64,000 nt of DNA from Bacteroidales bacterium UBA4181 (GTDB lineage Bacteria; Bacteroidota; Bacteroidia; Bacteroidales; UBA4181), in the NCBI GenBank assembly GCA_002380425.1, contig DFUR01000013.1:554-64553 (forward strand). The letters run 5' to 3'. How positions within the stretch are numbered: position 1 is the first letter of the stretch; each line of letters begins with the position of its first letter. A model generated the notes under the pieces. That model saw nothing but the letters and a program-made list of their open reading frames with translations, was not told the origin of the DNA and did no database searches. This document shows positions 6,991 through 53,802 of the stretch, in pieces. The translations under genes were made by a program, and so were the position numbers.

Positions 6991-7857
6991 ATGAAAGGGA
7001 TTATACTTGCCGGAGGTAGTGCTACCCGTCTTTATCCACTCTCCAAGGCCATTTCCAAACAAATCATGCCGGTGTACGACAAGCCCATGATTTATTATCC
7101 TCTTTCCACCCTGATGTTGGCGGGCATTCGTGAGGTATTGGTGATCTCCACTCCGAGGGACCTTCCCATGTTTCGGGAACTGCTCGGGGATGGCCGTCAC
7201 CTCGGAATGCGTCTGGAGTATAAGGTTCAGGATGTCCCCAATGGTCTGGCTCAGGCATTTGTTCTGGGTGCGGAGTTTCTTTCCGGTGAGCCGGCCTGTC
7301 TCATCCTGGGGGATAATTTATTCTATGGCCATGGTTTCCCGTCCCTGCTTCGCGGGGTGGTGGCCCATTCTGGCTCCGGAGCCTGTATCTTTGGTTACCC
7401 GGTGAAGGATCCCCGTGCTTATGGGGTGGTTTCGTTTGACGCAGACGGCACAGTACTGAGTCTTGAAGAAAAACCTGAGCATCCTCTTTCCAATTACGCG
7501 GTCCCCGGGCTGTATTTCTACGACAGTACCGTATCCGCCCGTGCTGCTGCCCTGAAGCCTTCTGCCAGAGGAGAGTACGAGATTACAGACCTCAATAAGT
7601 GTTATCTGGCCGAAGGGACCCTTAGAGTGGAACTCCTCGGGAGAGGGTTTGCCTGGCTGGACACCGGGAATTGCGACAGCCTCCTGGAAGCATCCAATTT
7701 TGTGCACACAGTTCAAAGCCGCCAGGGCTTTCAGATATCCTGTATTGAAGAGATTGCCTGGCGCAACGGATGGATCACCGATGAGCAGTTGCAGAAATTG
7801 GGACAAGCTCTGTCCAAGACGGAATACGGCCAGTATTTGCTGAGTCTGGTGCATTAG
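6991..7857 (+). CDS. rfbA: Glucose-1-phosphate thymidylyltransferase
   Basis: '[53 protein letters not shown]' is a near-canonical RmlA N-terminus. 288 aa. Confidence 0.95.
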
Positions 7858-7938
7858 GGGCCGGGATTGCCCTGGCTGCCGGGATTTGAGCCGTTTTGTG
7901 TATCTTTGTCCTGTATCAACCAACCTTTGCCCCCGTTT

Positions 7939-9078
7939 ATGAAGAAATATCTTGTCACCGGCGGAGCCGGTTTTATCGGAGCCAATTATGTCAAGTACCT
8001 GCTGCACACCTATGCTGATGTGAACCTCGTCGTGCTGGATGCCCTGACCTATGCCGGAAACTATCGTACCATCGAGCAGGATGTGGATGGGGAACGTTGT
8101 TGCTTCGTCAAAGGTGACATCTGCGACCGTGAATTGGTGGACCGTATCTTTGAGGAGCATGGAGTGCAGGTGGTGGTAAATTTTGCTGCGGAGAGCCATG
8201 TGGACCGGAGTATCGAAAACCCACAGCTTTTCCTGGTTACCAACATTCTGGGCACGCAGAACCTGTTGGATGCTGCTCGCCGTCACTGGGTAACGGGCAA
8301 GGATGCGCAGGGATATCCCCAATGGAAACAGGGTGTGCGTTTTCATCAGGTTTCGACCGATGAAGTGTATGGCAGCCTGGGTGAGGAGGGATACTTCACC
8401 GAAGAGACCCCCCTGGATCCGCGAAGCCCTTACAGTGCCTCCAAAACCAGTGCAGACCTCTTTGTCCGGGCTTATGTGGAAACCTTCAAAATGCCGGCGA
8501 CCATCACCCGTTGTTCCAACAACTACGGGCCATATCACTTTCCCGAAAAATTGATCCCCTTGATTATTAAGAACATTCTGGAGGGAAAGCCCCTCCCGGT
8601 GTACGGTAACGGGAGCAATGTCCGTGATTGGTTGTATGTGGAGGACCACTGCAAGGCTATAGAAATGGTCGTGCGTAAGGGGCGTCCTGGCGAAGTGTAC
8701 AATGTGGGAGGACACAACGAGATGCAGAATCTGGAGATTGTGAGAATGGTGATTGCCAATATCCGCAGCATTATGGACCGGGAGCCGGGTTATCGGGAGG
8801 TATTGAAAAAGAAGGAATACAATGCCCAGGGAGAGATCCGCACCGACTGGATCAACGAAACCCTCATCACGTTTGTGGCCGACCGGCTGGGGCATGACCA
8901 GCGATACGCTATTGACCCCACCAAGATTACCGGCGAACTGGGCTGGTATCCTGAAACCCGCTTTGCACAGGGCATTGTCCAAACCATCTACTGGTATCTG
9001 GATCATCAGGATTGGGTGGATGAAGTGACCAGCGGCTCGTACCAGCAGTACTACCAGCAGATGTACACAGACCGGTAA
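7939..9078 (+). CDS. rfbB: dTDP-glucose 4,6-dehydratase
   Basis: 'MKKYLVTGGAGFIGANYV', 'YSASKTSADLFVRAY' (YxxxK) and 'NNYGPYHFPEKLIP'. I prefer ATG at 7939 over the TTG-initiated track ORF at 7867. Confidence 0.95.
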   Translation: MKKYLVTGGAGFIGANYVKYLLHTYADVNLVVLDALTYAGNYRTIEQDVDGERCCFVKGDICDRELVDRIFEEHGVQVVVNFAAESHVDRSIENPQLFLVTNILGTQNLLDAARRHWVTGKDAQGYPQWKQGVRFHQVSTDEVYGSLGEEGYFTEETPLDPRSPYSASKTSADLFVRAYVETFKMPATITRCSNNYGPYHFPEKLIPLIIKNILEGKPLPVYGNGSNVRDWLYVEDHCKAIEMVVRKGRPGEVYNVGGHNEMQNLEIVRMVIANIRSIMDREPGYREVLKKKEYNAQGEIRTDWINETLITFVADRLGHDQRYAIDPTKITGELGWYPETRFAQGIVQTIYWYLDHQDWVDEVTSGSYQQYYQQMYTDR

Positions 9079-9163: not shown

Positions 9164-9697
9164 ATGTTGGAGGGCCTGATTACCTCAAAAACACGGATTA
9201 AGCTGCTGACTAAGTTCTTCATCAATGCGGGGACTACGGCTTATTTGCGTCATCTTGAATCGGAATTCGGGGAGTCAACCAATGCCATCCGGGTGGAATT
9301 GAACCGGCTGGAAAAGGCTGGATTGCTTGAGTCGGAGCGTTCCGGAAACAAAAAAATCTTCAGGGCCAATACCCAACACCCCTATTTTGGGGAAATCAAC
9401 CGCATTTTGCTCAAGTTTGTGGGCATTGAGGCAGTGATTGACCAAGTGGTGCGCAAGGTGGGGGTACTGGTCCGGGCCTATGTTACCGGGGATTTTGCCA
9501 TGGGTCGGCCCGGGAATATTCTGGACATCGCTCTTATTGGGAGCGGGTTTGATTATGCATACCTGAACAGCCTGATCAAAAGGGCTGAACAAACTGTGTC
9601 GTTCAAAATACGATACATCACTCTGGAGCCTGGGGAGGAAAAGTTGTTTGTTTCCACCCAGAATAGTGTGCTTTTGGTTTGGTCCTCAGGGAACTAG
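9164..9697 (+). CDS. Winged-helix (ArsR-like) transcriptional regulator with an uncharacterised C-terminal domain
   Basis: 'AYLRHLESEFGESTNAIRVELNRLEKAGLLESERSGNKKIF' has a wHTH pattern. It sits directly upstream of wza/wzc. A 6-bp hairpin GAGTAA-aaaac-TTACTC (9140..9156) lies just 5' of the start. Confidence 0.5.
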   Translation: MLEGLITSKTRIKLLTKFFINAGTTAYLRHLESEFGESTNAIRVELNRLEKAGLLESERSGNKKIFRANTQHPYFGEINRILLKFVGIEAVIDQVVRKVGVLVRAYVTGDFAMGRPGNILDIALIGSGFDYAYLNSLIKRAEQTVSFKIRYITLEPGEEKLFVSTQNSVLLVWSSGN

Positions 9698-9809: not shown

Positions 9810-10607
9810 ATGAACTGTATGAAGAACTATTCCATGCGCGCCCTGTTGTGGCTGCCGGCATTGCTTGCTTTGGGGATATCCTCGTGTATCCCTCAGAAGT
9901 CTGTTATCTACCTGCAGGACAAGACCCAGCAGGAAGGCTATGTGAATCCTTACCGTCAGGCCACCGAGATCACGGAGAACTACAAGATTCAGGTGAACGA
10001 TTACCTGTATGTGCGCGTGATCACCGGGGACCCGGAGTTGGAGAAATACTACAATCTCTCAACCGGTACCGGACAGATGTCCACACAAGGGGGAAACTCC
10101 ATGAAATTCAGCTCCTATCTGGTGGCCGATAATGGGTGCATAGATTTTCCTTATCTGGGAGATGTGCCCGTGCAAGGGCTCACACTTAGTCAGGCCAAGG
10201 CCCGTCTGTCGGAATTGCTCAGCAAGCAGATTGACCAGTACACGCTTCAGGTGCAACTTACCAATACCTTCTTCACCGTGTTGGGTGAGGCTGGCTCGGG
10301 CATGTATCCCATGAACAAGGATCAGCTCACCATCTACGAGGCTCTGGCAATGGCGGGGGACCTGAAAACTTATTCCAAACGAAATAAGGTGAAGATTATC
10401 CGGAAAGGATCAGACGGGGTTTCTTCCATTCGCGAGGTGGACCTTACTGACAAGAATTTGCTCGATTCGCAGGAGTCGTATATTCTGCCCAATGATATTG
10501 TTTATGTGGAACCTATCAAGGCTAAGATGCTGGGTTTTGGAGAGACCTTCTCTCTGGGGCTGGTTACCACCCTTATTTCGTTCTATTTGTTGATTCTGTC
10601 CTTGTAA
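9810..10607 (+). CDS. wza: Polysaccharide export outer-membrane lipoprotein (Wza family)
   Basis: Lipoprotein-type signal 'MRALLWLPALLALGISSC', a Poly_export-like 'YKIQVNDYLYVRV' and an SLBB-like segment 'KVKIIRKGSDG'. It is adjacent to wzc. Confidence 0.85.
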   Translation: MNCMKNYSMRALLWLPALLALGISSCIPQKSVIYLQDKTQQEGYVNPYRQATEITENYKIQVNDYLYVRVITGDPELEKYYNLSTGTGQMSTQGGNSMKFSSYLVADNGCIDFPYLGDVPVQGLTLSQAKARLSELLSKQIDQYTLQVQLTNTFFTVLGEAGSGMYPMNKDQLTIYEALAMAGDLKTYSKRNKVKIIRKGSDGVSSIREVDLTDKNLLDSQESYILPNDIVYVEPIKAKMLGFGETFSLGLVTTLISFYLLILSL

Positions 10608-10617
10608 CCGTACTGTT

Positions 10618-13089
10618 ATGTCCGAGAATATTTCAGAGAATCCCGTATCTGTCCGTAAGCAGGACCGGAATGAACTACAAAAGTGGCTCTTCCTGTTTTT
10701 GAGTCATTGGCCCCTTTTTGTTTTGTTTGGCATTTTAGGCCTGGTTGCCTCGTTCTTCATTGACCGCTACACCGTTCCGGTATATCAGGTCCGCTCCACG
10801 GTGTTGCTCAAAAAAACCGTGCGAAGCGCCATCACGCTGGGAGAGCAGGCCTCTATGCTGGGAGGTATCACCAGTACGGATTATGAAAACTTCAACAACC
10901 AAAAGATTTTGATCCGCACCCCTTCGCAGATTATGAAGGCGCTAAATGCTCTGGACTTCAATATCTGTTATTATTCCCGGGGCCGGTTTAATGATTTTGA
11001 GTTTTATCCTGAATTGCCTTTCAAGGTGTTGATGGACTCGGCCCACGTGCAGCCCCTGGATGTGGAAATCCACCTGAGCCGCAAGAGTGACGGCACCCTT
11101 TATGTGCATGCCGATGCCGAAGGAGAGGTTTCTCTGTACAATTTCAAAGTGCGCAGCTACACGGGCACCCTTCCCGGATTGCAGTTTGAAGCCCCGCTGG
11201 TGGCCGATTCGCTGATCAAAACCGATTTTATGGCGTTTCGGATTGTGCCCACCAATACTCCTTTGAACGATCTGGTCACTGCTGGCGATTATTTTTTTAG
11301 GTTTCGCAGCAATCAGGATATGATTGGGGAGTACAGCAATATCAACATGGATTATGTAACCTCCGGTTCTTCCATTGTGAACATCACCCTGACCGGGACT
11401 TGCCTCAACAAGATGAATGTATTCCTGGCTAAGTTGATGGAAACCTGGACGGCCACAGGTCTGGAGCGCAAGAATCAGATTGCCAGCAACACCGTTGCCT
11501 TCATCAACCGGCATCTATTGGCTTTGAAAGATAGTCTGAGCCTGTCCGGGAACAAATTGCAAAGGTTTAAGCTGGCAAACAATATGCTACTTCCTGAAGG
11601 CATTTTAGAGGCGCAGTATTCCAAGATTCAGGAACTGGATGCCCGTCAGGCCCAGTTGGAGACACAGCGGTCGTATGTCACTGAGCTCAAAAAGTATCTG
11701 GCAAACCGGGCAGATTATGACAAACTCATCGCTCCATCATCGGTAGGCATCGAGAGTCCCACACTGAGTGGTTACATTGATCAGCTCAGTGCCATAAGGC
11801 AATCCCTGTATCAGTCGGTAGGACTGGGTGGAAAGATGACCAATCCCTATCTGGTGAAGTTGCAGAAGGAAGAATCCACGCTGCTGGCCTTGATTTACGA
11901 GAATATTTCCTCAATTGAGAACAATCTGCAGTTCACTCTGGAGATGATTTCGGGTCAAAGGCGAGATTTGATCAGGGAACAGTCACGCATGCCGGCCATG
12001 GAGCAGCAGTTGATCAACATCCAGCGCAATTTTGATATGACCGATGAACTCTATACTTCTCTGTTAGAAAAGAGCCTGGAAGCCCAGATTCAGAAGGCGT
12101 CAAATGTGTCGGATAGTGAAATCATTGAGTCACCGTCGCTGGATTATGTCATTGCACCGCAAACCCGGCGAATCTTTATGAAATGGACCCTGATTGCCTT
12201 GCTGATTCCTATTGGAGTGGTGGTGCTTAAGGACTTCCTGAATGTGAAAGTGATCAACAACGATGATGTCAAGAAAATCACCGATGTGTCTATCATTGGG
12301 ACCATCCTGGAAAACGACCGGGATGCCCTGATGGTTACCCAGGCCCATCCGAATGCTCCCATTTCCGAAGCATTCCGGGCACTGCGTACCCGTCTGGATT
12401 TTCTCTCCAGGGGCAAGGAAAAGCAGGTGGTGCTGTTTACCTCCACGGCCTCAGGTGAGGGGAAATCTTTCTGTGCTGCCAACCTTGCGGGCATCTGCGC
12501 CATGAATGGCAAGAAGACCGTGCTGCTTGGGATGGACCTGCGCAAACCCAAGCTGAATGAGGTGTTGGGCATGAGTCAGTCCGCCGGGATTTCGAACTAC
12601 CTGATTGGGAAGAAGTCGTTGGATGAGGTGATCACCCCAACCCAGTTTGCCAATCTGGACTGCTTGTTCTCCGGGCCGATTCCCCCCAATCCGGCCGAGT
12701 TGATAGACTCCGACAAAACCCGGGAAATGTTCGATGAACTCAAAAAACGATATGATTATATCATCGTGGACACTTCCCCGGTAGGTTTGGTGTCCGATGC
12801 CATGTTGCTGATGCCATATGCAGACGTGAATCTGTATGTGGTTCGTCACAGGGTAACCATCAAGCAATTGCTGGAACACAATATTGAACTGGTGCAGAAG
12901 CTCAATACCCGCAATCTGGGGATTGTGATGAATGGCCTGAATATCCGCAAACGCGGCTACGGCTATGGCTACGGCTATGGGTATGGCTACGGTTACGGGT
13001 ACGGCTATGGGTATGGCTACGGTTACGGAGACAATGCGGATATGAAAAAGGGCCGCAGGCGTTCCTCCAAATCGTCAAAGAAGGCATAA
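10618..13089 (+). CDS. wzc: Polysaccharide co-polymerase / BY-tyrosine kinase (Wzc family)
   Basis: 823 aa with two TM segments flanking a long coiled periplasmic region. Walker A 'TSTASGEGKSFCAANLA', A' 'VLLGMDLRKP' and Walker B 'YDYIIVDTSPVG' are present. The C-terminal tyrosine cluster is (GY)12. Confidence 0.9.
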   Translation: MSENISENPVSVRKQDRNELQKWLFLFLSHWPLFVLFGILGLVASFFIDRYTVPVYQVRSTVLLKKTVRSAITLGEQASMLGGITSTDYENFNNQKILIRTPSQIMKALNALDFNICYYSRGRFNDFEFYPELPFKVLMDSAHVQPLDVEIHLSRKSDGTLYVHADAEGEVSLYNFKVRSYTGTLPGLQFEAPLVADSLIKTDFMAFRIVPTNTPLNDLVTAGDYFFRFRSNQDMIGEYSNINMDYVTSGSSIVNITLTGTCLNKMNVFLAKLMETWTATGLERKNQIASNTVAFINRHLLALKDSLSLSGNKLQRFKLANNMLLPEGILEAQYSKIQELDARQAQLETQRSYVTELKKYLANRADYDKLIAPSSVGIESPTLSGYIDQLSAIRQSLYQSVGLGGKMTNPYLVKLQKEESTLLALIYENISSIENNLQFTLEMISGQRRDLIREQSRMPAMEQQLINIQRNFDMTDELYTSLLEKSLEAQIQKASNVSDSEIIESPSLDYVIAPQTRRIFMKWTLIALLIPIGVVVLKDFLNVKVINNDDVKKITDVSIIGTILENDRDALMVTQAHPNAPISEAFRALRTRLDFLSRGKEKQVVLFTSTASGEGKSFCAANLAGICAMNGKKTVLLGMDLRKPKLNEVLGMSQSAGISNYLIGKKSLDEVITPTQFANLDCLFSGPIPPNPAELIDSDKTREMFDELKKRYDYIIVDTSPVGLVSDAMLLMPYADVNLYVVRHRVTIKQLLEHNIELVQKLNTRNLGIVMNGLNIRKRGYGYGYGYGYGYGYGYGYGYGYGYGDNADMKKGRRRSSKSSKKA
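12955..13026 (+). repeat. 72-nt coding microsatellite-like repeat encoding (Gly-Tyr)x12, with an internal 30-nt periodicity
   Basis: Twelve consecutive GGN-TAY pairs. The 24-mer ggctatgggtatggctacggttac occurs at both 12973..12996 and 13003..13026. Confidence 0.9.
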
Positions 13090-13095
13090 TTTCGC

Positions 13096-14145
13096 ATGAA
13101 GCACGCGCTTATTACCGGGATTACCGGACAGGACGGAGCTTATCTGGCCAAGTATTTGCTAAACAAGGGCTATCGGGTCTTTGGCACGTATCGCCGCTTG
13201 TCCACGCCCAATTTTTGGCGGCTGCAATATCTGGGTATCTTCGATGAGGTGGAGTTGTTCCCCTGTGACTTAATGGATAGTTTCTCCATTATCGAAGCAC
13301 TGCGTCTTTCCCGGCCTGATGAAGTGTACAATCTGGCAGCCCAGAGTTTTGTCGGGGCCTCTTTTGAGCAGGCGATTGCCTCCGGTGAGATCACCGGATT
13401 GGGGGTTGCCCGGCTTTTGGAGGCCATCCGCCTGGTTACCCCCGAGGCTCGATTCTATCAGGCTTCTACCAGTGAGATGTTTGGGGACAACCGCTATGAC
13501 GCCCAGGACGAAAACACCCCGCTGGAGCCCTCCAGCCCCTATGCTGCCGCCAAGTTGTATGCGCACCACATGTTGAAGATATATCGTAAGGGATACGGAC
13601 TGTATGCCTGCAACGGGATTTTGTTCAACCATGAGAGCCCGCTCCGGGGGTTGGAGTTCGTTACCCGGAAAATCACCAACGCGGTTGCCAAAATTAAGCT
13701 CGGACTGGAATCCCATATTGAGCTTGGGAATATTGACGCCCGGCGCGACTGGGGATACGCTCCCGAGTATGTGGAAGCCATGTGGCTGATGTTACAGCAG
13801 GATACTCCGGATGACTATGTGGTGGCCACCAATGAAACCCATTCTGTGCGGGAGTTTCTCCAGGCTGCTTTCTCGTCGGCTGGCCTGAACTGGGAGGATC
13901 ATGTCCGCATCAGCGAGAAGTTTCTCCGGCCGGTGGAAGTGCGATCCTTGCACGGAAATTATGAAAAGAGTGCCCGTGTATTGGGATGGCAGCCAAAGGT
14001 GCTTTTTTCCGATTTGGTGGAATTGATGGTCCGGGAGGATCTGGAGCGGTGGGCTCAGTGGAACCGAGGGGTTCATTTCCCTTGGGATGCCTGGAATTAT
14101 CCCAATGAAAAGAAAATATTGTCCAGAAAAGTGAAGTTTGAATAA
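13096..14145 (+). CDS. gmd: GDP-mannose 4,6-dehydratase
   Basis: 'ALITGITGQDGAYLAKYLLNKGY', 'YAAAKLYAHHM' (YxxxK) and 'GILFNHESPLRG' are hallmark Gmd segments. Confidence 0.85.
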   Translation: MKHALITGITGQDGAYLAKYLLNKGYRVFGTYRRLSTPNFWRLQYLGIFDEVELFPCDLMDSFSIIEALRLSRPDEVYNLAAQSFVGASFEQAIASGEITGLGVARLLEAIRLVTPEARFYQASTSEMFGDNRYDAQDENTPLEPSSPYAAAKLYAHHMLKIYRKGYGLYACNGILFNHESPLRGLEFVTRKITNAVAKIKLGLESHIELGNIDARRDWGYAPEYVEAMWLMLQQDTPDDYVVATNETHSVREFLQAAFSSAGLNWEDHVRISEKFLRPVEVRSLHGNYEKSARVLGWQPKVLFSDLVELMVREDLERWAQWNRGVHFPWDAWNYPNEKKILSRKVKFE

Positions 14146-14146
14146 T

Positions 14147-14998
14147 ATGGAAAACAAATTGAAGGAAACAGTCTATCATCCTACACACGCTGATGTCAAG
14201 GTGTTTGCGCTAGGGAATATGTACAGAGACCTGCTACTTTCCCGGTTTTTGGGAAGGCAGTTGTTTGTGCGCGATACGCTGGCAACTTTTCGTCAGTCGC
14301 TGCTGGGATTGTTTTGGGCCTTTATTCCGCCCTTCTTTACGGCCTCTGTATGGATATTCTTAACGCTGTTCAATTTGGTTAAGGTCAACAACACGGTGGA
14401 AAACTATCCGGTGTTTGTGTTGTGTGGTACCATCATGTTTCAAACCTTCTTTGAAGCGCTCAAGGCGCCTACCGAAGCGGTGATGAACGGCCGCTCGATG
14501 ATGAGCAAACTGAAGTTTCCCCGGGAGGCCTTTTTGATCAGTGCTTTCTACCGGATGCTGTTTAACTTCCTGGCGAGGTTTGTGGCCTTGGTGTTGTTGC
14601 TGGTGGTCTTTTCGAATAGCTTTTCATGGAACTCCCTGTTGTTTATTCCCGCAGCCCTAGCGCTTATCCTTTGTGGTTTCAGTATTGGGGTATTGCTGAT
14701 TCCCTTCCAGATGCTCTATGAAGACTTTGGTCGTTTTCTGGCCATTGCCAGTCAGGTAGTGATGTACATCACCCCCGTAGTGTATCCCATGCCCGAATCA
14801 GGAAGACTGTACCATTTTATGCTCTGGAACCCCATCACCCCGCTCATCACGGTTACCCGGGACCTGCTGACAGGTCAGTATCCCACTATGTGGCCTCAGT
14901 TCACTGCCATCATGCTGTGTTCCTTGTTGATCCTTTGGATTGGCTGGGCCATGTACCGGATTACCATGCCGATTATCATTGAACGCATCGGTTCCTGA
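14147..14998 (+). CDS. wzm: ABC-2 type polysaccharide export permease
   Basis: About 283 aa with six hydrophobic segments. 'FRQSLLGLFWAFIPPFFTASVWIF' is typical of Wzm/TagG/KpsM permeases. I prefer ATG 14147 over the TTG track start 14138. It is followed by wzt. Confidence 0.85.
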   Translation: MENKLKETVYHPTHADVKVFALGNMYRDLLLSRFLGRQLFVRDTLATFRQSLLGLFWAFIPPFFTASVWIFLTLFNLVKVNNTVENYPVFVLCGTIMFQTFFEALKAPTEAVMNGRSMMSKLKFPREAFLISAFYRMLFNFLARFVALVLLLVVFSNSFSWNSLLFIPAALALILCGFSIGVLLIPFQMLYEDFGRFLAIASQVVMYITPVVYPMPESGRLYHFMLWNPITPLITVTRDLLTGQYPTMWPQFTAIMLCSLLILWIGWAMYRITMPIIIERIGS

Positions 14999-15037
14999 CC
15001 AATATTTCCAACATCCCATCAATACACATCCGTTTTC

Positions 15038-16255
15038 ATGAAGGACGATATTCTGATTAAGTGTGACAAAGTTTCCAAAAAGTTTTGCAAGGACTTCAAA
15101 AGGTCTCTTTGGTATGGTTTCAAGGACGTGTGCAGCTCTTTTACGAGGGGGAATCCCAATCCGGAGCGGCTCCGTAAGGACGAGTTCTGGGCGCTCAAGG
15201 ACATTTCTTTTGAACTGCGCAGAGGGGAATGTCTGGGCCTGATTGGGCACAACGGGGCAGGGAAGTCCACCCTGCTCAAGATGCTCACGGGTTTGATCAA
15301 GCCCGATGAGGGCTCCATCACCATGCGGGGGCGCATCGGCACCATGATCGAGTTGGGTGCCGGATTCAATCCCATCCTCACGGGGCGGGAGAACATTTAT
15401 AACAACGGCGCTGTACTGGGTTTCAGCAAGGAAGAGATTGATGATAAGTTTCAGCAAATCGTGGCTTTCTCGGAGATAGGGGAATTCATTGATAGCCCGG
15501 TGCAGAATTACAGCTCCGGGATGAAGGTTCGTCTGGGATTTGCCGTGGCAGCCCAGATGGAGCCCGATGTGTTGCTCGTTGACGAGGTGCTGGCAGTAGG
15601 CGACCTAGGCTTTGTTATTAAGTGCCTCAACCGCATGGGAGAACTCATTCCCAACACGGCCACCATCTTTGTCAGCCACAGTATGCCCATGATTTCCCGG
15701 ATTTGTTCCCAAGTGCTGCTGATGGACAAGGGGAAAACACTATTTCATTCCAATGATATAGCGGAGGGCATTGCCAAGTATATCAATATGTTTGAATCTC
15801 CTCAGAGGATCAATCAGGGAAGTGGGGAGATAGAGTTAGCGTCCATCGCGATACACGATCCCAGAACAGGCCGCATGGTGCAGGATGACTCTGCCGTCCT
15901 GACCACCTACGATGACCTTGATATGGAGGTGACCGTCAAGATCGCCCCCTCAGTAGGAACATTTCACTTGTTTTTAACCACTTTTGACGCTCAGCTCAGG
16001 GAGGTGATGTCCTCAGGGTCCAATATTAACGGGGCGGCATTTGTGAACAACGGGACGGAGGTGCGCAAGTTTCAAATCAAGATTCCGCATCAGGTATTGG
16101 CTACGGCCAAATACAGCATCACTTTTGGTGCCACCAACCCGGATACCAAGGCTTTTTACTGCCGGGTGACCAACAGTATCTACTTTACAATGAAGGCCGG
16201 TGCTGCTACCTGGGCTTGTTCGGTAATCCCCGGTGAGTGGAAAGAACAAAACTAA
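15038..16255 (+). CDS. wzt: Polysaccharide ABC transporter ATP-binding protein with a C-terminal Wzt_C-like beta-sandwich extension
   Basis: Walker A 'GHNGAGKST', signature 'YSSGMKVRLGFA' and Walker B 'VLLVDEVLAVGD'. About 150 extra C-terminal residues follow ('GEIELASIAIHD...KYSITFGATNPD...IYFTMKA'). Confidence 0.9.
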   Translation: MKDDILIKCDKVSKKFCKDFKRSLWYGFKDVCSSFTRGNPNPERLRKDEFWALKDISFELRRGECLGLIGHNGAGKSTLLKMLTGLIKPDEGSITMRGRIGTMIELGAGFNPILTGRENIYNNGAVLGFSKEEIDDKFQQIVAFSEIGEFIDSPVQNYSSGMKVRLGFAVAAQMEPDVLLVDEVLAVGDLGFVIKCLNRMGELIPNTATIFVSHSMPMISRICSQVLLMDKGKTLFHSNDIAEGIAKYINMFESPQRINQGSGEIELASIAIHDPRTGRMVQDDSAVLTTYDDLDMEVTVKIAPSVGTFHLFLTTFDAQLREVMSSGSNINGAAFVNNGTEVRKFQIKIPHQVLATAKYSITFGATNPDTKAFYCRVTNSIYFTMKAGAATWACSVIPGEWKEQN

Positions 16256-16260
16256 TCGGA

Positions 16261-17364
16261 ATGAACCCAGTATATGTAACCCAGCCAGCTCTTCCTCCTC
16301 TGGATGAATACACCCAGATGCTGGAGCAGATTTGGAGCCAAAAGATACTCACCAACAACGGTCCCTTTCACCAGGAGTTTGAGCAGGAGCTGTGCCGGTA
16401 TCTGGGGGTGGAGCATCTCTCAGTGTTTTCCAACGGCACCCTTGCCCTGATGACAGCACTGCAAGCGCTGCGTATCGTGGGCGAGGTCATAACTACTCCG
16501 TTCAGTTTTGTGGCGACCACGCATTCCCTGTGGTGGAACAACATCAAGCCGGTGTTCGTGGATGTGGAGCCTGAGTATTTCAATCTGGACCCGGACCGCA
16601 TTGAAGCAGCCATTACCCCGAGAACCACAGCCATCATGCCGGTGCATGTGTACGGGAATCCGTGCTACATGGAACGCATCCGCGAAATTGCCGACACCTA
16701 TGGGCTCAAAGTCATTTATGATGCAGCCCATGCTTTTGGCGTTCGCAGGAACGGACATTCTGTGCTGGAGTACGGGGATATGTCCATCCTTAGCTTTCAT
16801 GCCACCAAGGTATTCAGTTCCATTGAGGGAGGGGCCATCGTGTGCCGCAGTGAGGTTATGAAAAAAAGGATTGACCACCTCAAGAACTTTGGGTTTGCCA
16901 ATGAAACCACTGTCATAGAGCCGGGCATCAATGCCAAAATGAATGAGTTTCAGGCAGCTTTTGGTTTGCTTCAACTCCGGTATGTGGATGGATATATTGC
17001 ACGGAGAAAAGAAATTGCTGAGACCTATCGCTCCGGGCTTAGGGATGTTGCCGGGATTCGGTGTATGGAGGACATCCCGGGGGTGCGCCACGGTTATCCA
17101 TATTTCCCGGTATTTGTGGATGCCGCGCAATATGGAATGAGCCGTGATGATCTATACGAAAAGCTGAAGCAACATCAAATTTTTGGACGTCGTTATTTTT
17201 ATCCGCTCATCAGCCAATTCCCCACCTACAGCGGGCTGAGTTCCGCCCGGCCTGAAAATCTTCCGGTTGCAGAGCAGGCAGCCCGTCAGGTATTGTGCCT
17301 CCCGATTTTTCCGGAGCTCTCTCTGGAAAAGGTGGCAGAGATTCTATCCATCATTAAGTCTTGA
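16261..17364 (+). CDS. DegT/DnrJ/EryC1/StrS-family NDP-sugar aminotransferase
   Basis: 'GDMSILSFHATKVFSSIEGGAIV' contains the PLP lysine motif SxHxxK, and 'NAKMNEFQAAFGLLQL' is also present. I prefer ATG at 16261. Confidence 0.85.
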   Translation: MNPVYVTQPALPPLDEYTQMLEQIWSQKILTNNGPFHQEFEQELCRYLGVEHLSVFSNGTLALMTALQALRIVGEVITTPFSFVATTHSLWWNNIKPVFVDVEPEYFNLDPDRIEAAITPRTTAIMPVHVYGNPCYMERIREIADTYGLKVIYDAAHAFGVRRNGHSVLEYGDMSILSFHATKVFSSIEGGAIVCRSEVMKKRIDHLKNFGFANETTVIEPGINAKMNEFQAAFGLLQLRYVDGYIARRKEIAETYRSGLRDVAGIRCMEDIPGVRHGYPYFPVFVDAAQYGMSRDDLYEKLKQHQIFGRRYFYPLISQFPTYSGLSSARPENLPVAEQAARQVLCLPIFPELSLEKVAEILSIIKS

Positions 17365-17370: not shown

Positions 17371-18492
17371 ATGGGAGCACTGGAGTCATTCAATGAGCGG
17401 GGCCTGTTGCAAAAGGAATACCTGGGTGAGGACAAGCCGGTAAACCGGATGGACCCTGTGGTTTCCATCTGCGTCACCACGTACCAGCATGCGGGATTCA
17501 TCACGGAATGTCTGGAAGGGATGCTCTGTCAGCGCACCCGATTCCCCTACGAGATTGTGATTGGTGAAGATGAGTCCACCGATGGTACCCGGGAAATTTG
17601 TATGGAGTATGCCCGGAAGTATCCGGATAAGATTCGTTTGTTGCTGCGCGACAGGGAGCTGTCACAGTATTATGAAGATGGGGTACTCAAGACCAGGTTC
17701 AACTGGAAGTGGACCCTGCGTGATTGCCGTGGAAAGTATGTGGCCTGGTGCGAAGGCGACGATTATTGGACCGACCCGGATAAATTGCAGAAACAGGTGG
17801 ACTTTATGGAACTCCATCCGGATTATGTGCTGTGCCACCATAATGTGGAGGTTCAATATGAAGATGGATCAAAACCTTCTCATCTGTCGAATGCTCCAGA
17901 CCAGCCCCTGGTTACCGATATCCGTGACCTGGCCAGAGGAAACTATATTTACACAGCGTCGTGCATGTACCGGAACAATCTTTTTCCATTCTTTCCGGGT
18001 TGGGTGTTCGGAGTTCCGGTAGGGGATTATGTGATGCACATGCTCAACGCCCGCTTTGGAAAAATAGGTTATTTGCCCGATGTGATGGCTGTGTACCGCA
18101 TCCATCAGGGAGGGGTATGGGGACCTCAGTCCCGTATCGTAACCTTGGAGCGCTGGCTCAAGGTGCTTGCGGCGATGATAGGACAGTTTGACATCCAGGT
18201 GGAGGAAATTCTCAGGGAACAGTACACCCGCTTGACCATCGAGTTGTTTGGACATTATATGCGTCAGAATGATACGCAGAAAGCCGCTCAGTGTCTGGAA
18301 AAACCGGTTTCTTGTCTGAATGCGGAGCAGTTGGAACCTTGCCGAATGCTTTTGGACCAATATGCGCAGCAACAACAACTGCAGCAGCAACTGGAGGAAA
18401 CGCTTCGTTCAACATCCTTCCGTACAGGCAGGATGTTGGTGGGTGTGTTGGCCTGGCCTCGTACGGTATGGAGAAAGCTGTTATCTCGTTGA
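17371..18492 (+). CDS. GT2-family glycosyltransferase with a Gln-rich helical C-terminal tail
   Basis: 'VSICVTTYQHAGFITECLEGMLCQ...YEIVIGEDESTDGT' and 'WCEGDDYW' (DxD-like). The tail reads 'LLDQYAQQQQLQQQLEETL'. An alternative start lies at 17449. Confidence 0.8.
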   Translation: MGALESFNERGLLQKEYLGEDKPVNRMDPVVSICVTTYQHAGFITECLEGMLCQRTRFPYEIVIGEDESTDGTREICMEYARKYPDKIRLLLRDRELSQYYEDGVLKTRFNWKWTLRDCRGKYVAWCEGDDYWTDPDKLQKQVDFMELHPDYVLCHHNVEVQYEDGSKPSHLSNAPDQPLVTDIRDLARGNYIYTASCMYRNNLFPFFPGWVFGVPVGDYVMHMLNARFGKIGYLPDVMAVYRIHQGGVWGPQSRIVTLERWLKVLAAMIGQFDIQVEEILREQYTRLTIELFGHYMRQNDTQKAAQCLEKPVSCLNAEQLEPCRMLLDQYAQQQQLQQQLEETLRSTSFRTGRMLVGVLAWPRTVWRKLLSR

Positions 18493-19532
18493 TGGTTGCT
18501 CCTGTGGACCGGCCTCTGGTGTCGGTGTGTATTCCCAGTTTCAACGGTGCTGCCTATGTTGAGCAAGCCCTTGAATCAGCTCTGTCTCAAACATACCGTC
18601 CTCTGGAGGTGCTGGTTGTGGATGATGGCTCCACGGACGAAACGGTGGCTCTGGTTGCGCATTATGCCGAACGGGATCGGAGGGTAGTGCTGCATCAGAA
18701 CAAACACAATATGGGATTGGTCGGGAATTGGAATGAATGTATCCGTCGGGCTTCTGGCCAATGGATTAAGTTTCTGTTTCAGGACGATGTGCTTGACCCA
18801 CTTTGTGTGGAACGTTTATTCGAGGGCTGTCGCCAGAGTCAGGCTCGGTTTGCGGTCTGTGACCGGAAGTTCCTCTTGGAATCTTCGGCCGGGGGAAAGT
18901 TCATAGATGCTTTTGGGCGCATTCGGCAATTGAGCGATACCGGGGTATCCACCGGGTTTGTGGCTCCCGATCAATTGCGGGATATTGTGTTGAAGGAACC
19001 CTATTTCAATATTCTGGGCGAACCTACAGCACATTTCTTTCATAAGAGCGTCCCTGAACAATTTGGTTTTTACAATGCTGATCTAATCCAGCTTTGCGAT
19101 TTTGAGTTTGCCCTTAGGGTTGTGGCTCATGTCGGTTGTTATTATGATGCGCAGGCCCTGGTAACCTTCCGAGTCCATGGGCAATCTGCTTCGGCCGCAA
19201 ACCAGGATGCCCGGAAAATCAGGAGTGACTGTGTGGATGTCTTGATTTTACTCCATCAGTATTTGTATCACCCCCTGTATCGTGTGTTTCACGCCCACCC
19301 GGGAATCGAACTTGTCCGGAAGGAATATGAGTTGCATTTTCGCCAACTTCACCGTGCGTTGGGTTTTTGGCGAACTTGTACTGTTCTGAGGCCCTTTCTG
19401 CAACATTATCCGCATTTGCGGCTGCACAGGAGCATCTTCGTCCGGGATTGCCGGGAAGCTTTGCTTCATCATCCGGGTGTCAGACGGTTGGTGCTTCTGT
19501 ATCAATCACTGAAAAACAAACTGAGCATTTGA
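18492..19532 (+). CDS. GT2-family glycosyltransferase
   Basis: 'VSVCIPSFNGAAYVEQALESALSQTYRPLEVLVVDDGSTDET' and 'FLFQDDVL'. The start at 18492 overlaps the upstream stop by 1 nt (TGATG). I judge the track extension from 18291 to be spurious. Confidence 0.8.
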   Translation: MVAPVDRPLVSVCIPSFNGAAYVEQALESALSQTYRPLEVLVVDDGSTDETVALVAHYAERDRRVVLHQNKHNMGLVGNWNECIRRASGQWIKFLFQDDVLDPLCVERLFEGCRQSQARFAVCDRKFLLESSAGGKFIDAFGRIRQLSDTGVSTGFVAPDQLRDIVLKEPYFNILGEPTAHFFHKSVPEQFGFYNADLIQLCDFEFALRVVAHVGCYYDAQALVTFRVHGQSASAANQDARKIRSDCVDVLILLHQYLYHPLYRVFHAHPGIELVRKEYELHFRQLHRALGFWRTCTVLRPFLQHYPHLRLHRSIFVRDCREALLHHPGVRRLVLLYQSLKNKLSI

Positions 19533-19536
19533 TCTG

Positions 19537-22241: not shown

Positions 22242-22243
22242 CA

Positions 22244-27882: not shown

Positions 27883-27886
27883 CCCA

Positions 27887-32489: not shown

Positions 32490-32490
32490 T

Positions 32491-33609: not shown

Positions 33610-33613
33610 GCCG

Positions 33614-34861: not shown

Positions 34862-34871
34862 CCAACACTCT

Positions 34872-38747: not shown

Positions 38748-38748
38748 T

Positions 38749-39756: not shown

Positions 39757-39757
39757 G

Positions 39758-41773: not shown

Positions 41774-41778
41774 AAAAC

Positions 41779-53646: not shown

Positions 53647-53750
53647 CGCAAATATGTTTTACCCTCCTTATGGCATTGAACGATTTTTGCCGTTTCGAAC
53701 CATTTTTTCGCCACCCCAGTTCAAATGATCCGGAAGCCATTGGAATTGCT

Positions 53751-53758
53751 TATTTTTG
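53751..53758 (+). promoter_or_regulatory. Candidate -7 box TATTTTTG for upxY
   Basis: Exact TAnnTTTG match about 45 nt upstream of the preferred upxY ATG (53803). Confidence 0.35.
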
Positions 53759-53802
53759 CAGTGTCTGTGCCCCTAAATTTTACTGGGGAGGAATTTCAAT
53801 AT

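What the first reader, a model, noticed from the sequence alone, without database searches (positions are those of the whole stretch)
9810..16255. Wza/Wzc export genes abut Wzm/Wzt ABC-transporter genes, so two normally alternative assembly routes sit in one array
**Seen in sequence.** wza and wzc (9810..13089) are followed by gmd, wzm and wzt (13096..16255) after gaps of only 6 nt and 1 nt. The same co-directional array also carries a Wzy-like polytopic protein (47800..49131). A Wzx-like flippase lies at 63539..64000, and a WecA-type initiator at 52576..53616.

**Established knowledge.** Wzx/Wzy-dependent polymerisation (with Wza/Wzc) and ABC-transporter-dependent assembly (Wzm/Wzt) are distinct routes and are usually encoded in separate loci.

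**Inference.** Three explanations are possible:
- Two different glycans are made from one super-locus, which would fit the two nucleotide-sugar families (dTDP and GDP) and the more than 20 GTs.
- A hybrid route exists, for example an ABC-exported polymer handed to Wza/Wzc.
- The 'Wzy' is really a WaaL-type ligase that attaches the ABC-exported chain.
Basis: partly seen in the sequence, partly recalled or inferred. Interest (0 to 1): 0.7.

Follow-up and report, generated by a model that had tools for sequence, protein, structure and literature searches.

The report
ABC exporter within Wzy/Wza/Wzc glycan locus
A 43-kb, 39-gene sugar-coat locus of a Bacteroidota bacterium really does put an O-antigen-type ABC exporter (Wzm/Wzt) beside the Wza/Wzc export pair and a Wzy-type polymerase, and the same combination, without the usual Wzx flippase in the array, recurs in several relatives, so it may be one mixed assembly line rather than two separate ones.

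Summary
They head a gap-free, co-directional array of 39 genes (9810-52587).

- **Not an artefact.** The same order is found on 17 independently assembled contigs.
- **Component identities.**
  - Wzt is an O-antigen-type ATPase with a C-terminal beta-sandwich domain like Aquifex Wzt.
  - Wzc is a tyrosine autokinase with a (GY)13 tail.
  - The "Wzy" belongs to a large family distantly related to Pfam O-ag_pol_Wzy. It does not match the WaaL ligase family.
- **Recurrence.**
  - 27 of 65 Wzt loci in Bacteroidota genomes have wza-wzc just upstream.
  - 14 of 20 Wzy-like loci have wza-wzc just downstream.
  - In three relatives where about 30 kb or more is visible, Wzm/Wzt and the Wzy-like block share one array. 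In a compact fourth, Wzy-like, wza, wzc, wzm and wzt are contiguous.
  - No Wzx was seen in any of these arrays. The window's only Wzx sits in a separate operon on the opposite strand.

I favour one integrated ABC + Wzy-family + Wzc/Wza pathway (0.45) over two independent glycans (0.35). All of the evidence is gene context. I found no description of this layout in the literature I searched.

The parts
6991..9078 (+). rmlA and rmlB (dTDP-glucose synthesis and 4,6-dehydration), just upstream of the array
   Evidence: Pfam NTP_transferase 4e-71; GDP_Man_Dehyd/Epimerase 6e-91
9164..9697 (+). 177-aa winged-helix regulator (PaaX/ArsR-like) at the head of the array
   Evidence: Weak HTH hits. Homologues at 38-55% identity lie directly upstream of wzm in L025, L057, L063 and L069.
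9810..10607 (+). Wza-like outer-membrane polysaccharide export (OPX) lipoprotein, short form (265 aa)
   Evidence: Poly_export 9e-15 and SLBB_2. Signal peptide with a lipobox Cys, and a C-terminal hydrophobic helix at residues 247-265.
10618..13089 (+). Wzc-like PCP-2a co-polymerase with a C-terminal tyrosine autokinase domain
   Evidence: GNVR and AAA_31. TIGR01007 at 168.5 bits against a cutoff of 108. Two transmembrane segments, a GEGKS Walker A motif and a (GY)13 tail.
13096..14145 (+). GDP-mannose 4,6-dehydratase (Gmd)
   Evidence: PF16363 3e-119; TIGR01472 2e-116
14147..14998 (+). Wzm, the ABC-2 type permease of a glycan exporter
   Evidence: NCBIfam galactan Wzm/RfbD permease 3e-12. About 5-6 hydrophobic segments. 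Homologues at 50% identity carry PF01061. No Pfam hit for this copy itself.
15038..16255 (+). Wzt, the ATPase of an O-antigen-type exporter, with a C-terminal beta-sandwich (carbohydrate-binding-type) domain
   Evidence: PDB sequence match to A. aeolicus Wzt 1e-54. AF2 model with pLDDT 84.9, all-beta over residues about 258-404. Foldseek matches full-length Wzt 8DL0/8DKU/7K2T at 5e-33 over about 400 columns. Most homologues carry PF14524 Wzt_C. This copy itself has no PF14524 hit.
16261..17364 (+). Sugar 4-aminotransferase of the DegT family. DesI-like is the best match and perosamine-synthase-like the second.
   Evidence: PF01041 8e-106. PDB 2PO3 at 2.5e-64 against perosamine synthetase at 1e-42. 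Homologues directly follow wzt in many loci.
17371..23377 (+). Three GT2, one GT4 and two unassigned proteins (267 aa and about 325 aa)
23374..26659 (+). NDP-hexose 2,3-dehydratase, GFO-type oxidoreductase and SDR reductase/epimerase (deoxy-sugar branch)
   Evidence: PF03559 1e-157 and GFO_IDH_MocA. Generic SDR. The same dehydratase-GFO pair follows wzt in Mangrovimonas CR14.
26678..32086 (+). GT2, a 159-aa GT fragment, an ArnC/PgfS-like polyprenyl-phosphate sugar synthase (27857-28855), a 756-aa protein with about 13 transmembrane segments and no known family (28845-31115), and a GT2
   Evidence: NCBIfam ArnC 1e-60 and PgfS 4e-59. No Pfam, NCBIfam or PDB hit for the 756-aa protein. Transmembrane count.
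32067..42693 (+). Small cupin ORF, second DegT aminotransferase, GT4, AsnB-type amidotransferase, GT2, unassigned 266-aa protein, polysaccharide deacetylase, GT2-GT10 fusion and FUT8-like GT
   Evidence: GT2_36784, unk266 and FUT8-like are syntenic with NODE_234 at 40-46% identity.
42687..52587 (+). Conserved 'Wzy-like block': GT2, GT2, GT4, GT4, GT1_2, Wzy-like, GT4, GT4, hexapeptide acyltransferase, GT2
   Evidence: Most genes of the block (GT2_42687, GT4_44501, GT4_45645, GT1_2, Wzy-like, GT4_49119, GT4_50120, hexapep, GT2_51697) recur in the same order at about 23-59% identity, mostly 33-58%, in dozens of loci.
47800..49131 (+). Wzy-family polytopic membrane protein (443 aa)
   Evidence: PF14296 7e-4 and TIGR04370 6e-5. 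15 of 40 homologues hit PF14296 and none hits Wzy_C. AF2 pLDDT 89.9 with no PDB fold match. 3998 cluster representatives in the family.
52576..53616 (-). WecA-like polyprenyl-phosphate HexNAc-1-P transferase (initiator), convergent with the end of the array
   Evidence: PF00953 5e-20 and TIGR02380 3e-16. A WecA-like gene follows the Wzy-like block in at least 11 related loci.
53725..54309 (+). UpxY-family NusG-like antiterminator (a Bacteroidota hallmark), apparently monocistronic
   Evidence: NF033644 at 138.7 bits against a cutoff of 100
55730..57418 (-). rmlC and rmlD
   Evidence: PF00908 9e-67; RmlD_sub_bind 1e-95
61645..64000 (-). Tail of a separate operon: Wzx (C-terminal 153 aa in the window), an unassigned 320-aa protein and a GT2. 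It is probably not part of the array.
   Evidence: The full operon on L087 is GDSL, FdtA x2, hexapeptide transferase, DegT, Wzx (452 aa, PF01943), 320-aa protein, GT2. Housekeeping genes lie between it and the array.

Best explanation
The array is one member of a recurrent Bacteroidota 'mega-locus'. In it a single coordinated assembly line combines four elements: an O-antigen-type ABC exporter (Wzm/Wzt with a carbohydrate-binding-type domain), a Wzy-family membrane enzyme, one WecA-type initiator, and the Wzc (tyrosine-kinase co-polymerase)/Wza (outer-membrane channel) pair.

**Proposed mechanism (inferred, not shown).**
1. WecA and about 20 cytoplasmic glycosyltransferases build a large undecaprenyl-diphosphate-linked glycan.
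2. Wzm/Wzt, rather than a Wzx flippase, moves it across the inner membrane.
3. In the periplasm the Wzy-family enzyme joins these units, either by block polymerisation or by transfer to an acceptor.
4. An ArnC-like synthase and a large polytopic protein add side residues.
5. Wzc and Wza carry the product to the cell surface.

**Shown versus inferred.** The identities of the parts and their repeated co-occurrence are shown. The order of events and the substrate are inferred.
For: 1. **Tight gene packing.** The array holds 39 co-directional genes with no gap above 39 nt. wzc, gmd and wzm are separated by 6 and 1 nt.
2. **Co-occurrence where about 30 kb or more is visible.** Three relatives carry Wzm/Wzt and the Wzy-like block in one co-directional array. 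They are ENA NODE_234 (L094+L093), a Saccharicrinis MAG (L032+L092) and Mangrovimonas GCA_021228275.1 (L179+L178 contiguous). Shared gene order extends over 36784-52587 at 34-58% identity.
3. **A compact version.** In L110, Wzy-like, wza, wzc, wzm and wzt are contiguous, and wzc/wzm/wzt overlap by 4 nt.
4. **Wza/Wzc track both partners.** 27 of 65 Wzt loci have wza-wzc upstream, six of them within 400 nt. 14 of 20 Wzy-like loci have wza(-wzc) within 9 kb downstream.
5. **No Wzx in these arrays.**
   - None appears in the Pfam-annotated gene tables of NODE_234, Mangrovimonas, L096 or L177.
   - Scans for polytopic ORFs covered about 85 Wzt loci and 83 Wzy-like loci (the 80 metagenome loci plus L092, L093 and L096). 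Of the 80 metagenome loci, 33 are at least 10 kb long.
   - The ORFs identified by BLAST or Pfam were WecA-like, MBOAT, Acyl_transf_3, PMT_2, HTTM, MFS or ABC; three of the ten sampled from Wzt loci gave no Pfam hit, and none was Polysacc_synt.
   - The scan does detect genuine Wzx proteins.
6. **The window's only Wzx is elsewhere.** It lies in a separate opposite-strand operon with its own sugar genes, beyond housekeeping genes.
7. **Experimental precedent.** The ABC flippase Wzk restores the O16 O antigen in an E. coli wzx mutant (PMC2841628). That O16 is Wzy-dependent is my own knowledge. The result shows that an ABC-type flippase can feed such a pathway.
Against: - All evidence is gene context. 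There are no expression, glycan or mutant data.
- In characterised systems, Wzt proteins with a C-terminal binding domain export complete, end-capped O-polysaccharides that go to WaaL, not to Wzy. A non-reducing-end cap would sit awkwardly with Wzy-type polymerisation.
- A Wzx does exist 11 kb from the end of the array and could serve the Wzy-like block.
- Many Wzt loci show no wza-wzc within 10 kb. Several Wzy-like loci end at wzc with no wzm-wzt after it (L123, L125, L130, L149, L159, L160, L162, L164). The heads of those loci could not be seen.
- About 20 GTs for one repeat unit would be unprecedented.
- The role of the Wzy-like protein rests on weak similarity to PF14296 only.
Confidence: 0.45

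Rival explanations
1. There are two independent, conventional glycans encoded in one super-locus. The first is an ABC-transporter-dependent O-polysaccharide (Wzm/Wzt plus nearby sugar genes and GTs), ligated to lipid A-core by a WaaL encoded elsewhere. The second is a Wzx/Wzy-dependent capsule or exopolysaccharide (Wzy-like block, Wzc, Wza) whose Wzx is unlinked. The adjacency reflects clustering and shared regulation or precursors, not a shared mechanism.
For: - **Each set matches its canonical family.** Wzt resembles the A. aeolicus O-antigen exporter, binding domain included. Wzc, Wza and a Wzy-family protein form the classical trio.
- **A genuine Wzx lies nearby** (PF01943, 11 kb from the array).
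- **The modules also occur apart.**
  - wzm-wzt-aminotransferase modules occur without visible wza-wzc (38 of 65 loci).
  - Wzy-like blocks often end in WecA-wza-wzc with no wzm-wzt following.
  - The segment 16237-36000 is missing from NODE_234, which suggests modular insertion.
- **Precedent.** Colanic-acid or group 1 capsule loci (wza-wzb-wzc...) directly abut wzm/wzt O-antigen loci in E. coli (PMC6128206).
Against: - wzx is normally inside Wzy-dependent loci. This includes other Bacteroidota capsule loci, a point that rests on my own knowledge of Bacteroides, Elizabethkingia and Riemerella loci. Here it is absent from every array and from within 10 kb of every Wzy-like locus examined.
- Wzm/Wzt and the Wzy-like block stay in one syntenic array across different families.
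- In L110 the five export and polymerase genes are contiguous and overlapping.
- Only one initiating transferase is present in the array.
Confidence: 0.35
2. This is a Kps-like ABC capsule. The full-length polymer exported by Wzm/Wzt is handed directly to Wzc/Wza, which act like KpsE/KpsD of group 2 capsules. The Wzy-like protein has an accessory role, for example transfer to an anchor or joining of two chains, rather than polymerising repeat units.
For: - ABC exporters coupled to a co-polymerase and an OPX channel are established for group 2 capsules. Foldseek also lists KpsT of the KpsMT-KpsE complex among the matches.
- wza-wzc-wzm-wzt form a contiguous head of the locus in Algibacter (L090). 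They are likewise contiguous in five further genomes.
- No Wzy-like gene was seen within 10 kb downstream in those loci.
Against: - The co-polymerase is a kinase-bearing PCP-2a, not PCP-3.
- No KpsS/KpsC-type linker enzymes were found in the array.
- Wzt carries an O-antigen-type binding domain that KpsT lacks.
- The Wzy-like block co-occurs too regularly to be incidental.
Confidence: 0.12
3. The 'Wzy' is a WaaL-type O-antigen ligase that attaches the ABC-exported chain to lipid A-core. Wza and Wzc belong to something else.
For: - An ABC-dependent O-antigen route needs a ligase, and none is otherwise seen in the window.
- Wzy and WaaL have similar architectures, with many transmembrane helices and a large late loop carrying conserved Arg residues (invariant R245, R286, R323).
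Against: - None of 40 family members hits Pfam Wzy_C (PF04932), while 15 of 40 hit O-ag_pol_Wzy. There is also a TIGR04370 polymerase hit.
- hhalign against E. coli WaaL gives a probability of 0.2%.
- Foldseek reports no match with E at or below 0.001 in the PDB library, and no ligase appears among the 50 rows listed.
- The family is tightly linked to wza-wzc (14 of 20 loci), which LPS ligation does not require.
Confidence: 0.05
4. The adjacency is an assembly artefact or a chance juxtaposition.
For: None.
Against: - An identical gene order is found on 17 contigs from at least six samples and three sources.
- The layout recurs in many species.
Confidence: 0.01

Closest known systems
ABC-transporter-dependent O-antigen export with a Wzt carbohydrate-binding domain (A. 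aeolicus WzmWzt; E. coli O9a and Klebsiella O12 type)
   Same: - Wzm-type permease plus Wzt ATPase.
- The Wzt model aligns with full-length A. aeolicus Wzt, including the C-terminal beta-sandwich.
- WecA-type initiator.
- Sugar-aminotransferase genes flank the transporter.
   Different: - The exporter sits inside an array that also has Wza, Wzc and a Wzy-family protein.
- No WbdD-like terminator and no WaaL were identified.
- About 20 GTs, against a handful in the model systems.
Wzx/Wzy-dependent group 1 capsule and colanic acid systems (Wza-Wzb-Wzc, Wzx, Wzy)
   Same: - OPX lipoprotein with a C-terminal helix.
- PCP-2a with Walker motifs and a Tyr-rich tail.
- Wzy-family membrane protein embedded among GTs.
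   Different: - No Wzx in the array or in related arrays.
- No Wzb phosphatase was seen.
- Wza is short (265 aa, one SLBB).
- An ABC exporter occupies the position next to wzc.
Group 2 (Kps) capsules: KpsMT ABC exporter + KpsE (PCP-3) + KpsD (OPX)
   Same: An ABC exporter is genetically coupled to a co-polymerase and an OPX channel.
   Different: - PCP-2a with a kinase domain instead of PCP-3.
- Wzt has a binding domain.
- No KpsS/KpsC.
- A Wzy-family protein is present.
Abutting capsule (wza-wzb-wzc...) and wzm/wzt O-antigen loci near his in E. coli and Klebsiella (PMC6128206)
   Same: Both kinds of export genes lie side by side on the chromosome and make two glycans.
   Different: - There the two loci are separate units, each complete, and the capsule locus contains its own wzx and wzy.
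- Here the ABC genes are nested between wzc and the Wzy-like block, and no wzx is in the array.
Dual-chain cell-wall polysaccharide assembly in Lactococcus lactis (cwps) and Enterococcus faecalis (EPA) (PMC9574508)
   Same: - One locus uses an ABC exporter for one chain and a polymerase acting on lipid-linked units for another.
- GacI/ArnC-like synthases plus large polytopic transferases join or decorate the chains outside the membrane.
   Different: - Gram-positive organisms, with no OPX or outer membrane step.
- Those loci do contain a Wzx-family flippase.
- The polymerases are not related in sequence.
ABC-type flippases Wzk and PglK (PMC2841628)
   Same: An ABC transporter flips Und-PP-linked glycans. 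Wzk restores the O16 antigen in an E. coli wzx mutant (O16 being Wzy-dependent is my own knowledge).
   Different: Wzk and PglK are fused MsbA-like half-transporters, not Wzm/Wzt. The complementation was heterologous, not a natural pathway.

Membership tests
Wzm/Wzt O-antigen-type ABC exporter | ATPase of the Wzt/TagH clade | tested here: met
   PDB sequence match to A. aeolicus Wzt 1e-54. NCBIfam TagH/Wzt models 4e-54 to 4e-48, all below the equivalog cutoffs.
Wzm/Wzt O-antigen-type ABC exporter | ABC-2 type permease encoded next to the ATPase | tested here: met
   NCBIfam Wzm/RfbD 3e-12. About 5-6 hydrophobic segments. Homologues at 50% identity carry PF01061. This copy has no Pfam hit of its own.
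Wzm/Wzt O-antigen-type ABC exporter | C-terminal carbohydrate-binding beta-sandwich on Wzt | tested here: met
   The fold is present. The AF2 model is all-beta over residues 258-404 with pLDDT of about 90. It aligns over about 400 columns with full-length Wzt 8DL0/8DKU/7K2T. There is no PF14524 HMM hit for this copy, although most homologues have one. Binding itself was not tested.
Wzm/Wzt O-antigen-type ABC exporter | Chain terminator or cap enzyme, and WaaL ligase acting on the product | tested here: inconclusive
   No WbdD-like or Wzy_C protein was found in the window. Several proteins remain unassigned, and the ligase could be encoded elsewhere.
OPX (Wza) | Poly_export (PES) domain, SLBB domain, lipoprotein signal and C-terminal membrane helix | tested here: met
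   There is only one SLBB and the protein is 265 aa, so it is a short form.
PCP-2a (Wzc) tyrosine autokinase | Two transmembrane segments flanking a periplasmic domain; cytoplasmic Walker A/A'/B kinase; C-terminal Tyr cluster | tested here: met
   TIGR01007 at 168.5 bits, above the cutoff of 108. GNVR. Transmembrane segments at 25-43 and 519-537. GEGKS motif and a (GY)13 tail.
Wzy O-antigen/repeat-unit polymerase | Sequence membership of a curated Wzy family | tested here: inconclusive
   PF14296 at 18.9 bits (cutoff 26.6) and TIGR04370 at 22.1 bits (cutoff 40) for the window protein. 15 of 40 homologues hit PF14296, best 1.8e-7. No similarity to E. coli WzyE. No PDB fold match.
WaaL O-antigen ligase (Pfam Wzy_C) | Wzy_C domain | tested here: not met
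   None of 40 family members hits PF04932 at E up to 0.1. hhalign against E. coli WaaL gives a probability of 0.2%.
Canonical Wzx/Wzy-dependent pathway | Wzx (MOP-family) flippase encoded with wzy in the locus | tested here: not met
   There is no Polysacc_synt protein in the array 9810-52587. None was found in related arrays. One Wzx lies in a separate operon 11 kb away.
Group 2 (Kps) ABC capsule | KpsS/KpsC linker enzymes and a PCP-3 co-polymerase without a kinase | tested here: not met
   No Capsule_synth-type hits in the array. The co-polymerase has a kinase domain.
Bacteroidota capsule-locus regulation (UpxY) | UpxY-family NusG paralogue as the first gene of the locus | tested here: inconclusive
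   A UpxY-family gene is present, above the cutoff. It lies after the end of the array, divergent from WecA, not at its head. The head carries a winged-helix regulator instead.

The most novel reading that the evidence does not exclude
Bacteroidota carry a widespread, so far undescribed fourth type of surface-glycan assembly line. In it a Wzm/Wzt ABC exporter with a binding domain replaces Wzx as the translocase that feeds a Wzy-family polymerase, Wzc and Wza. This would allow very large lipid-linked units, built by about 20 glycosyltransferases, to be polymerised and exported.
Probability: 0.33. Interest if true: 0.8.

Novelty: new variant of a known kind. Interest (0 to 1): 0.55.

Why it matters
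Textbook schemes treat Wzx/Wzy-dependent and ABC-transporter-dependent assembly as alternatives.

**If the combination seen here works as one pathway:**
- It would show that the translocation step is interchangeable in nature, not only in complementation experiments.
- It would give a route for exporting unusually large or heavily modified units.
- It would assign a role to a Wzy-like family of nearly 4000 cluster representatives.

**If it is instead two glycans:**
- The locus is still a useful map of how Bacteroidota pack O-chain and capsule genes together.
- It warns that capsule-finding tools which require wzx in the locus will misclassify these systems.

Tried and rejected
**Dead ends**
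- **Promoter and terminator scan of 9000-18000.** Counts were at the level of shuffled sequence (11 against 9.4, and 14 against 9.3). The sigma-70 consensus does not apply to Bacteroidota, so it was uninformative.
- **The apparent 320-nt gap at 32086-32407.** I considered it as a module boundary and rejected it, because a cupin ORF at 32067-32489 fills it.
- **Fold classification of the Wzy-like protein.** The model is good (pLDDT 89.9), but no PDB match scored better than E 0.78.
- **Sequence and profile searches of the PDB.** Nothing was found.
- **hhalign against E. coli WaaL and WzyE.** No similarity to either, so it does not discriminate between them.
- **The 756-aa membrane protein.** No Pfam, NCBIfam or PDB hit.
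- **Look-up of the gammaproteobacterial homologue P0164.** Not on record.
- **Literature searches for wzm/wzt together with wza/wzc in Bacteroidota or Flavobacteria.** No description of this layout was found.
- **Organism name.** Cluster look-up gave none. Taxonomy is inferred only from the nearest homologues and the UpxY gene.

**Labels dropped or left open**
- **'per' (perosamine synthase) for 16237-17364.** Dropped, because DesI is the better match.
- **GDP-fucose synthase for 25754-26659.** Not supported.

Full report
**1. Check of the observation**

- **9810-10607** carries Poly_export and SLBB domains. It also has a lipoprotein signal and a C-terminal hydrophobic helix. It is a short Wza-type outer-membrane export protein.
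- **10618-13089** has a GNVR domain and a tyrosine autokinase domain above the NCBIfam cutoff (TIGR01007, 168.5 bits against 108). It has two transmembrane segments, a GEGKS Walker A motif and a (GY)13 tail. It is a Wzc of the PCP-2a type.
- **13096-14145** is GDP-mannose 4,6-dehydratase (3e-119).
- **14147-14998** has no Pfam hit. It matches the NCBIfam Wzm/RfbD permease model (3e-12) and is polytopic. Its homologues at 50% identity carry ABC2_membrane.
- **15038-16255** matches the ATPase of the Aquifex aeolicus O-antigen exporter best, both in sequence (1e-54) and in fold.
  - An AlphaFold model (pLDDT 84.9) has an all-beta C-terminal domain.
  - It aligns over about 400 columns with full-length Wzt (8DL0, 8DKU, 7K2T; E 5e-33).

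The gaps are 6 nt (wzc to gmd), 1 nt (gmd to the ATG of wzm) and 39 nt (wzm to wzt).

The whole stretch 9810-52587 is one co-directional array of 39 genes. Twenty of them carry Pfam glycosyltransferase domains. The only apparent gap, 320 nt at 32086, is filled by a small cupin ORF.

**2. Not an artefact, and not unique**

- **Reproducibility.** The exact Wzt protein is found on 17 contigs from several JGI metagenomes, a Logan run, ENA and NCBI. The places shown carry the same regulator-wza-wzc-gmd-wzm-wzt-aminotransferase order wherever the contig reaches that far.
- **Organism.** It is unnamed. The nearest Wzt homologues are from Mangrovimonas (67%), a Bacteroidales MAG (64%) and a Paludibacter MAG (60%). 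A UpxY-family antiterminator is present. It is therefore a member of Bacteroidota, probably class Bacteroidia.
- **Survey of other species.** I examined 80 Wzt loci from species-representative genomes.
  - 27 of the 65 with at least 8 kb upstream have co-directional wza and wzc upstream of wzm.
  - Six of these lie within 400 nt: Algibacter aquimarinus (L010), a Tamlana strain (L045) and four uncultured or MAG Flavobacteriaceae genomes (L014, L036, L065, L081).

**3. The rest of the array**

- **rml genes.** rmlA and rmlB lie upstream. rmlC and rmlD lie downstream on the other strand.
- **Aminotransferase after wzt.** It is closer to DesI (2PO3, 2.5e-64) than to perosamine synthetase (1e-42). 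I do not call it 'per'.
- **Deoxy-sugar branch.** A 2,3-dehydratase, a GFO oxidoreductase and an SDR set follow.
- **Candidate periplasmic glycosylation pair.** An ArnC/PgfS-like polyprenyl-phosphate sugar synthase (1e-60) is followed directly by a 756-aa protein. That protein has about 13 transmembrane segments and no known family.
- **Other genes.** There is a second aminotransferase, an AsnB-type amidotransferase, a deacetylase, a GT2-GT10 fusion and a FUT8-like GT.
- **Ends of the array.** The WecA-like initiator is convergent with the end of the array.
- **The Wzx.** The Wzx at the window edge is real (452 aa, PF01943). It belongs to a separate minus-strand operon made up of GDSL, FdtA x2, acetyltransferase, aminotransferase, Wzx, a 320-aa protein and a GT2. 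Between this operon and the array lie rmlC/rmlD and an AAA ATPase gene, a universal stress protein, a tetrapyrrole methylase-like gene, a pseudouridine synthase and a methyltransferase.

**4. The 'Wzy'**

- The window protein hits PF14296 (7e-4) and TIGR04370 (6e-5), both below their cutoffs.
- Of 40 homologues scanned one by one, 15 hit PF14296 (best 1.8e-7). None hits the ligase family Wzy_C.
- A confident model (pLDDT 89.9) has no PDB fold match.
- Profile comparison with E. coli WaaL and WzyE is negative for both.
- The family is large: 3998 cluster representatives at E up to 1e-3.

The WaaL reading is therefore not supported. Membership of a curated Wzy family is suggestive only.

**5. 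Comparative anatomy: the main new result**

- **A conserved Wzy-like block.**
  - A metagenome scan with the Wzy-like alignment shows a conserved block: GT2, GT4, GT1_2, GT4, Wzy-like, GT4, GT4, hexapeptide transferase, GT2.
  - It corresponds to window 42687-52587. Identities run from about 23% to 59%, mostly 33-58%.
- **Link to wza-wzc.** In 14 of the 20 loci with at least 7 kb downstream, the block is followed by wza and usually wzc, mostly preceded by a WecA-like gene. In several of these the locus then ends.
- **Link to Wzm/Wzt.** Where longer stretches can be joined, Wzm/Wzt lies in the same array.
  - **ENA NODE_234.** The order is wza, wzc, wzm, wzt, then about 20 genes, then the Wzy-like block. 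It is syntenic with window genes from 36784 onward.
  - **Saccharicrinis MAG.** Wzt and Wzy-like lie 33 kb apart, as in the window.
  - **Mangrovimonas GCA_021228275.1.** The array reads wzm, wzt, then 31 kb of GT, sulfotransferase and MBOAT genes, then the Wzy-like block. The head of the locus is visible.
  - **L110.** Wzy-like, wza, wzc, wzm and wzt are contiguous, with 4-nt overlaps between the last three.
- **No Wzx.**
  - None of these arrays contains a Wzx.
  - A hydropathy scan of about 85 Wzt loci and 83 Wzy-like loci listed every large polytopic ORF. The 83 are the 80 metagenome loci plus L092, L093 and L096.
  - BLAST labels and Pfam checks of samples found WecA-like, MBOAT, Acyl_transf_3, PMT_2, HTTM, MFS and ABC proteins.
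  - Three of the ten candidates sampled from Wzt loci had no Pfam hit.
  - The same scan detects genuine Wzx proteins.

**6. Interpretation**

Two readings survive.

- **(a) One integrated pathway (0.45).**
  - **Proposal.** Wzm/Wzt translocates the lipid-linked product. The Wzy-family enzyme joins units in the periplasm. Wzc and Wza export the product.
  - **Support.** The parts recur together in different orders. The genes are tightly packed. There is a single initiator. Wzx is systematically absent, which is unusual for Wzy-dependent loci. An ABC flippase can feed a Wzy-dependent pathway experimentally (Wzk in an E. coli wzx mutant; PMC2841628).
- **(b) Two conventional glycans sharing a super-locus (0.35).**
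  - **Support.** Each part has a canonical identity. A Wzx lies nearby. The ABC-proximal segment is modular. Capsule and wzm/wzt O-antigen loci abut in E. coli (PMC6128206).
- **Minor readings.** A Kps-like variant (0.12) and the WaaL reading (0.05) are less likely.
- **A related precedent.** The Gram-positive dual-chain systems (L. lactis cwps, E. faecalis EPA; PMC9574508) show that one locus can combine ABC export with polymerisation of lipid-linked units into one composite polymer. Those loci do keep a Wzx.

**7. Weaknesses**

- Everything rests on gene context.
- Flanks were limited to 10 kb per look-up. The heads of most Wzy-like loci and the tails of most Wzt loci were therefore not seen.
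- In characterised systems, Wzt binding domains recognise end-capped complete chains. This fits awkwardly with repeat-unit polymerisation.

**8. Novelty**

I found no paper in the searchable library that describes wzm/wzt combined with wza/wzc and a Wzy-family gene in Bacteroidota. The parts are all known kinds. The combination, if functional, is a new variant.

- Interest: 0.55.
- Most novel reading not excluded: an ABC exporter naturally replacing Wzx in a Wzy/Wzc/Wza pathway. Probability about one third; interest if true 0.8.

Noticed in passing
window 27857-31115: An ArnC/PgfS-like polyprenyl-phosphate sugar synthase is followed, with an 11-nt overlap, by a 756-aa protein. That protein has about 13 transmembrane segments and no Pfam, NCBIfam or PDB sequence match. 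It is probably the GT-C-type partner of a periplasmic glycosylation system. Similar pairs occur in Wzt loci L046, L050, L077 and L079.
   Followed up: partly
window 23374-26659; L091 11422-13836: NDP-hexose 2,3-dehydratase, GFO oxidoreductase and SDR genes (2,6-dideoxy or 3-amino-deoxy sugar chemistry) sit in a surface-glycan locus. The same dehydratase-GFO pair directly follows wzt in Mangrovimonas sp. CR14.
   Followed up: partly
window 12990-13089 (Wzc residues about 779-803): The Wzc tail is a perfect (GY)13 repeat followed by a basic Ser/Lys-rich end. This is an unusually regular tyrosine cluster.
   Followed up: no
window 2969-6927; L077 16124-19300: Two PglD-like acyltransferases, an AMP-binding enzyme and a PGA_cap protein lie upstream of rmlA. 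They recur at 59-64% identity downstream of wzt and the aminotransferase in a Bacteroidetes MAG. This suggests an N-acylation module tied to the ABC-exported sugar.
   Followed up: partly
window 61645-64000 and beyond (L087 5523-11892): A separate minus-strand operon carries GDSL esterase, two FdtA-like isomerases, an acetyltransferase, an aminotransferase, Wzx, an unassigned 320-aa protein and a GT2. It is a small Wzx-dependent unit with no polymerase of its own.
   Followed up: partly
window 53725-54309: A UpxY-family antiterminator, above the NCBIfam cutoff, stands alone. It is divergent from WecA and lies after the end of the array rather than at its head. In L011 a UpxY-like gene sits just upstream of wzm.
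   Followed up: no
window 9164-9697: A 177-aa winged-helix regulator heads the array. Homologues lie directly upstream of wzm in Lentimicrobiaceae, Chryseobacterium and Flavobacterium loci (L025, L063, L069) and in a Bacteroidia MAG (L057).
   Followed up: partly
window 39734-42693; L094 13811-15784: A GT2-GT10 (fucosyltransferase-type) fusion is followed by a FUT8-like GT. A FucT plus FUT8-like pair is conserved in NODE_234. No GDP-fucose synthase was identified in the array, so the donor sugar is unclear.
   Followed up: partly
L094 1-3466; L177-L179: Related arrays carry several sulfotransferases, MBOAT/DltD-like acyltransferases and adjacent PAPS-synthesis genes, which points to sulfated and acylated polymers. 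The window array has none of these.
   Followed up: no
window 54317-55615 (-); L092 8589-9803: An AAA_14/DUF4143 ATPase gene lies next to the glycan locus. A gene of the same family sits immediately upstream of the Wzy-like gene in the Saccharicrinis MAG.
   Followed up: no
window 7318-9006 (-): A 562-aa ORF lies on the opposite strand over rmlA/rmlB and has no family hit. It is almost certainly a shadow ORF, not a gene.
   Followed up: yes
window 27403-27882: A 159-aa ORF has only a partial Glyco_trans_1_2 match. It is possibly a remnant of a glycosyltransferase gene.
   Followed up: no
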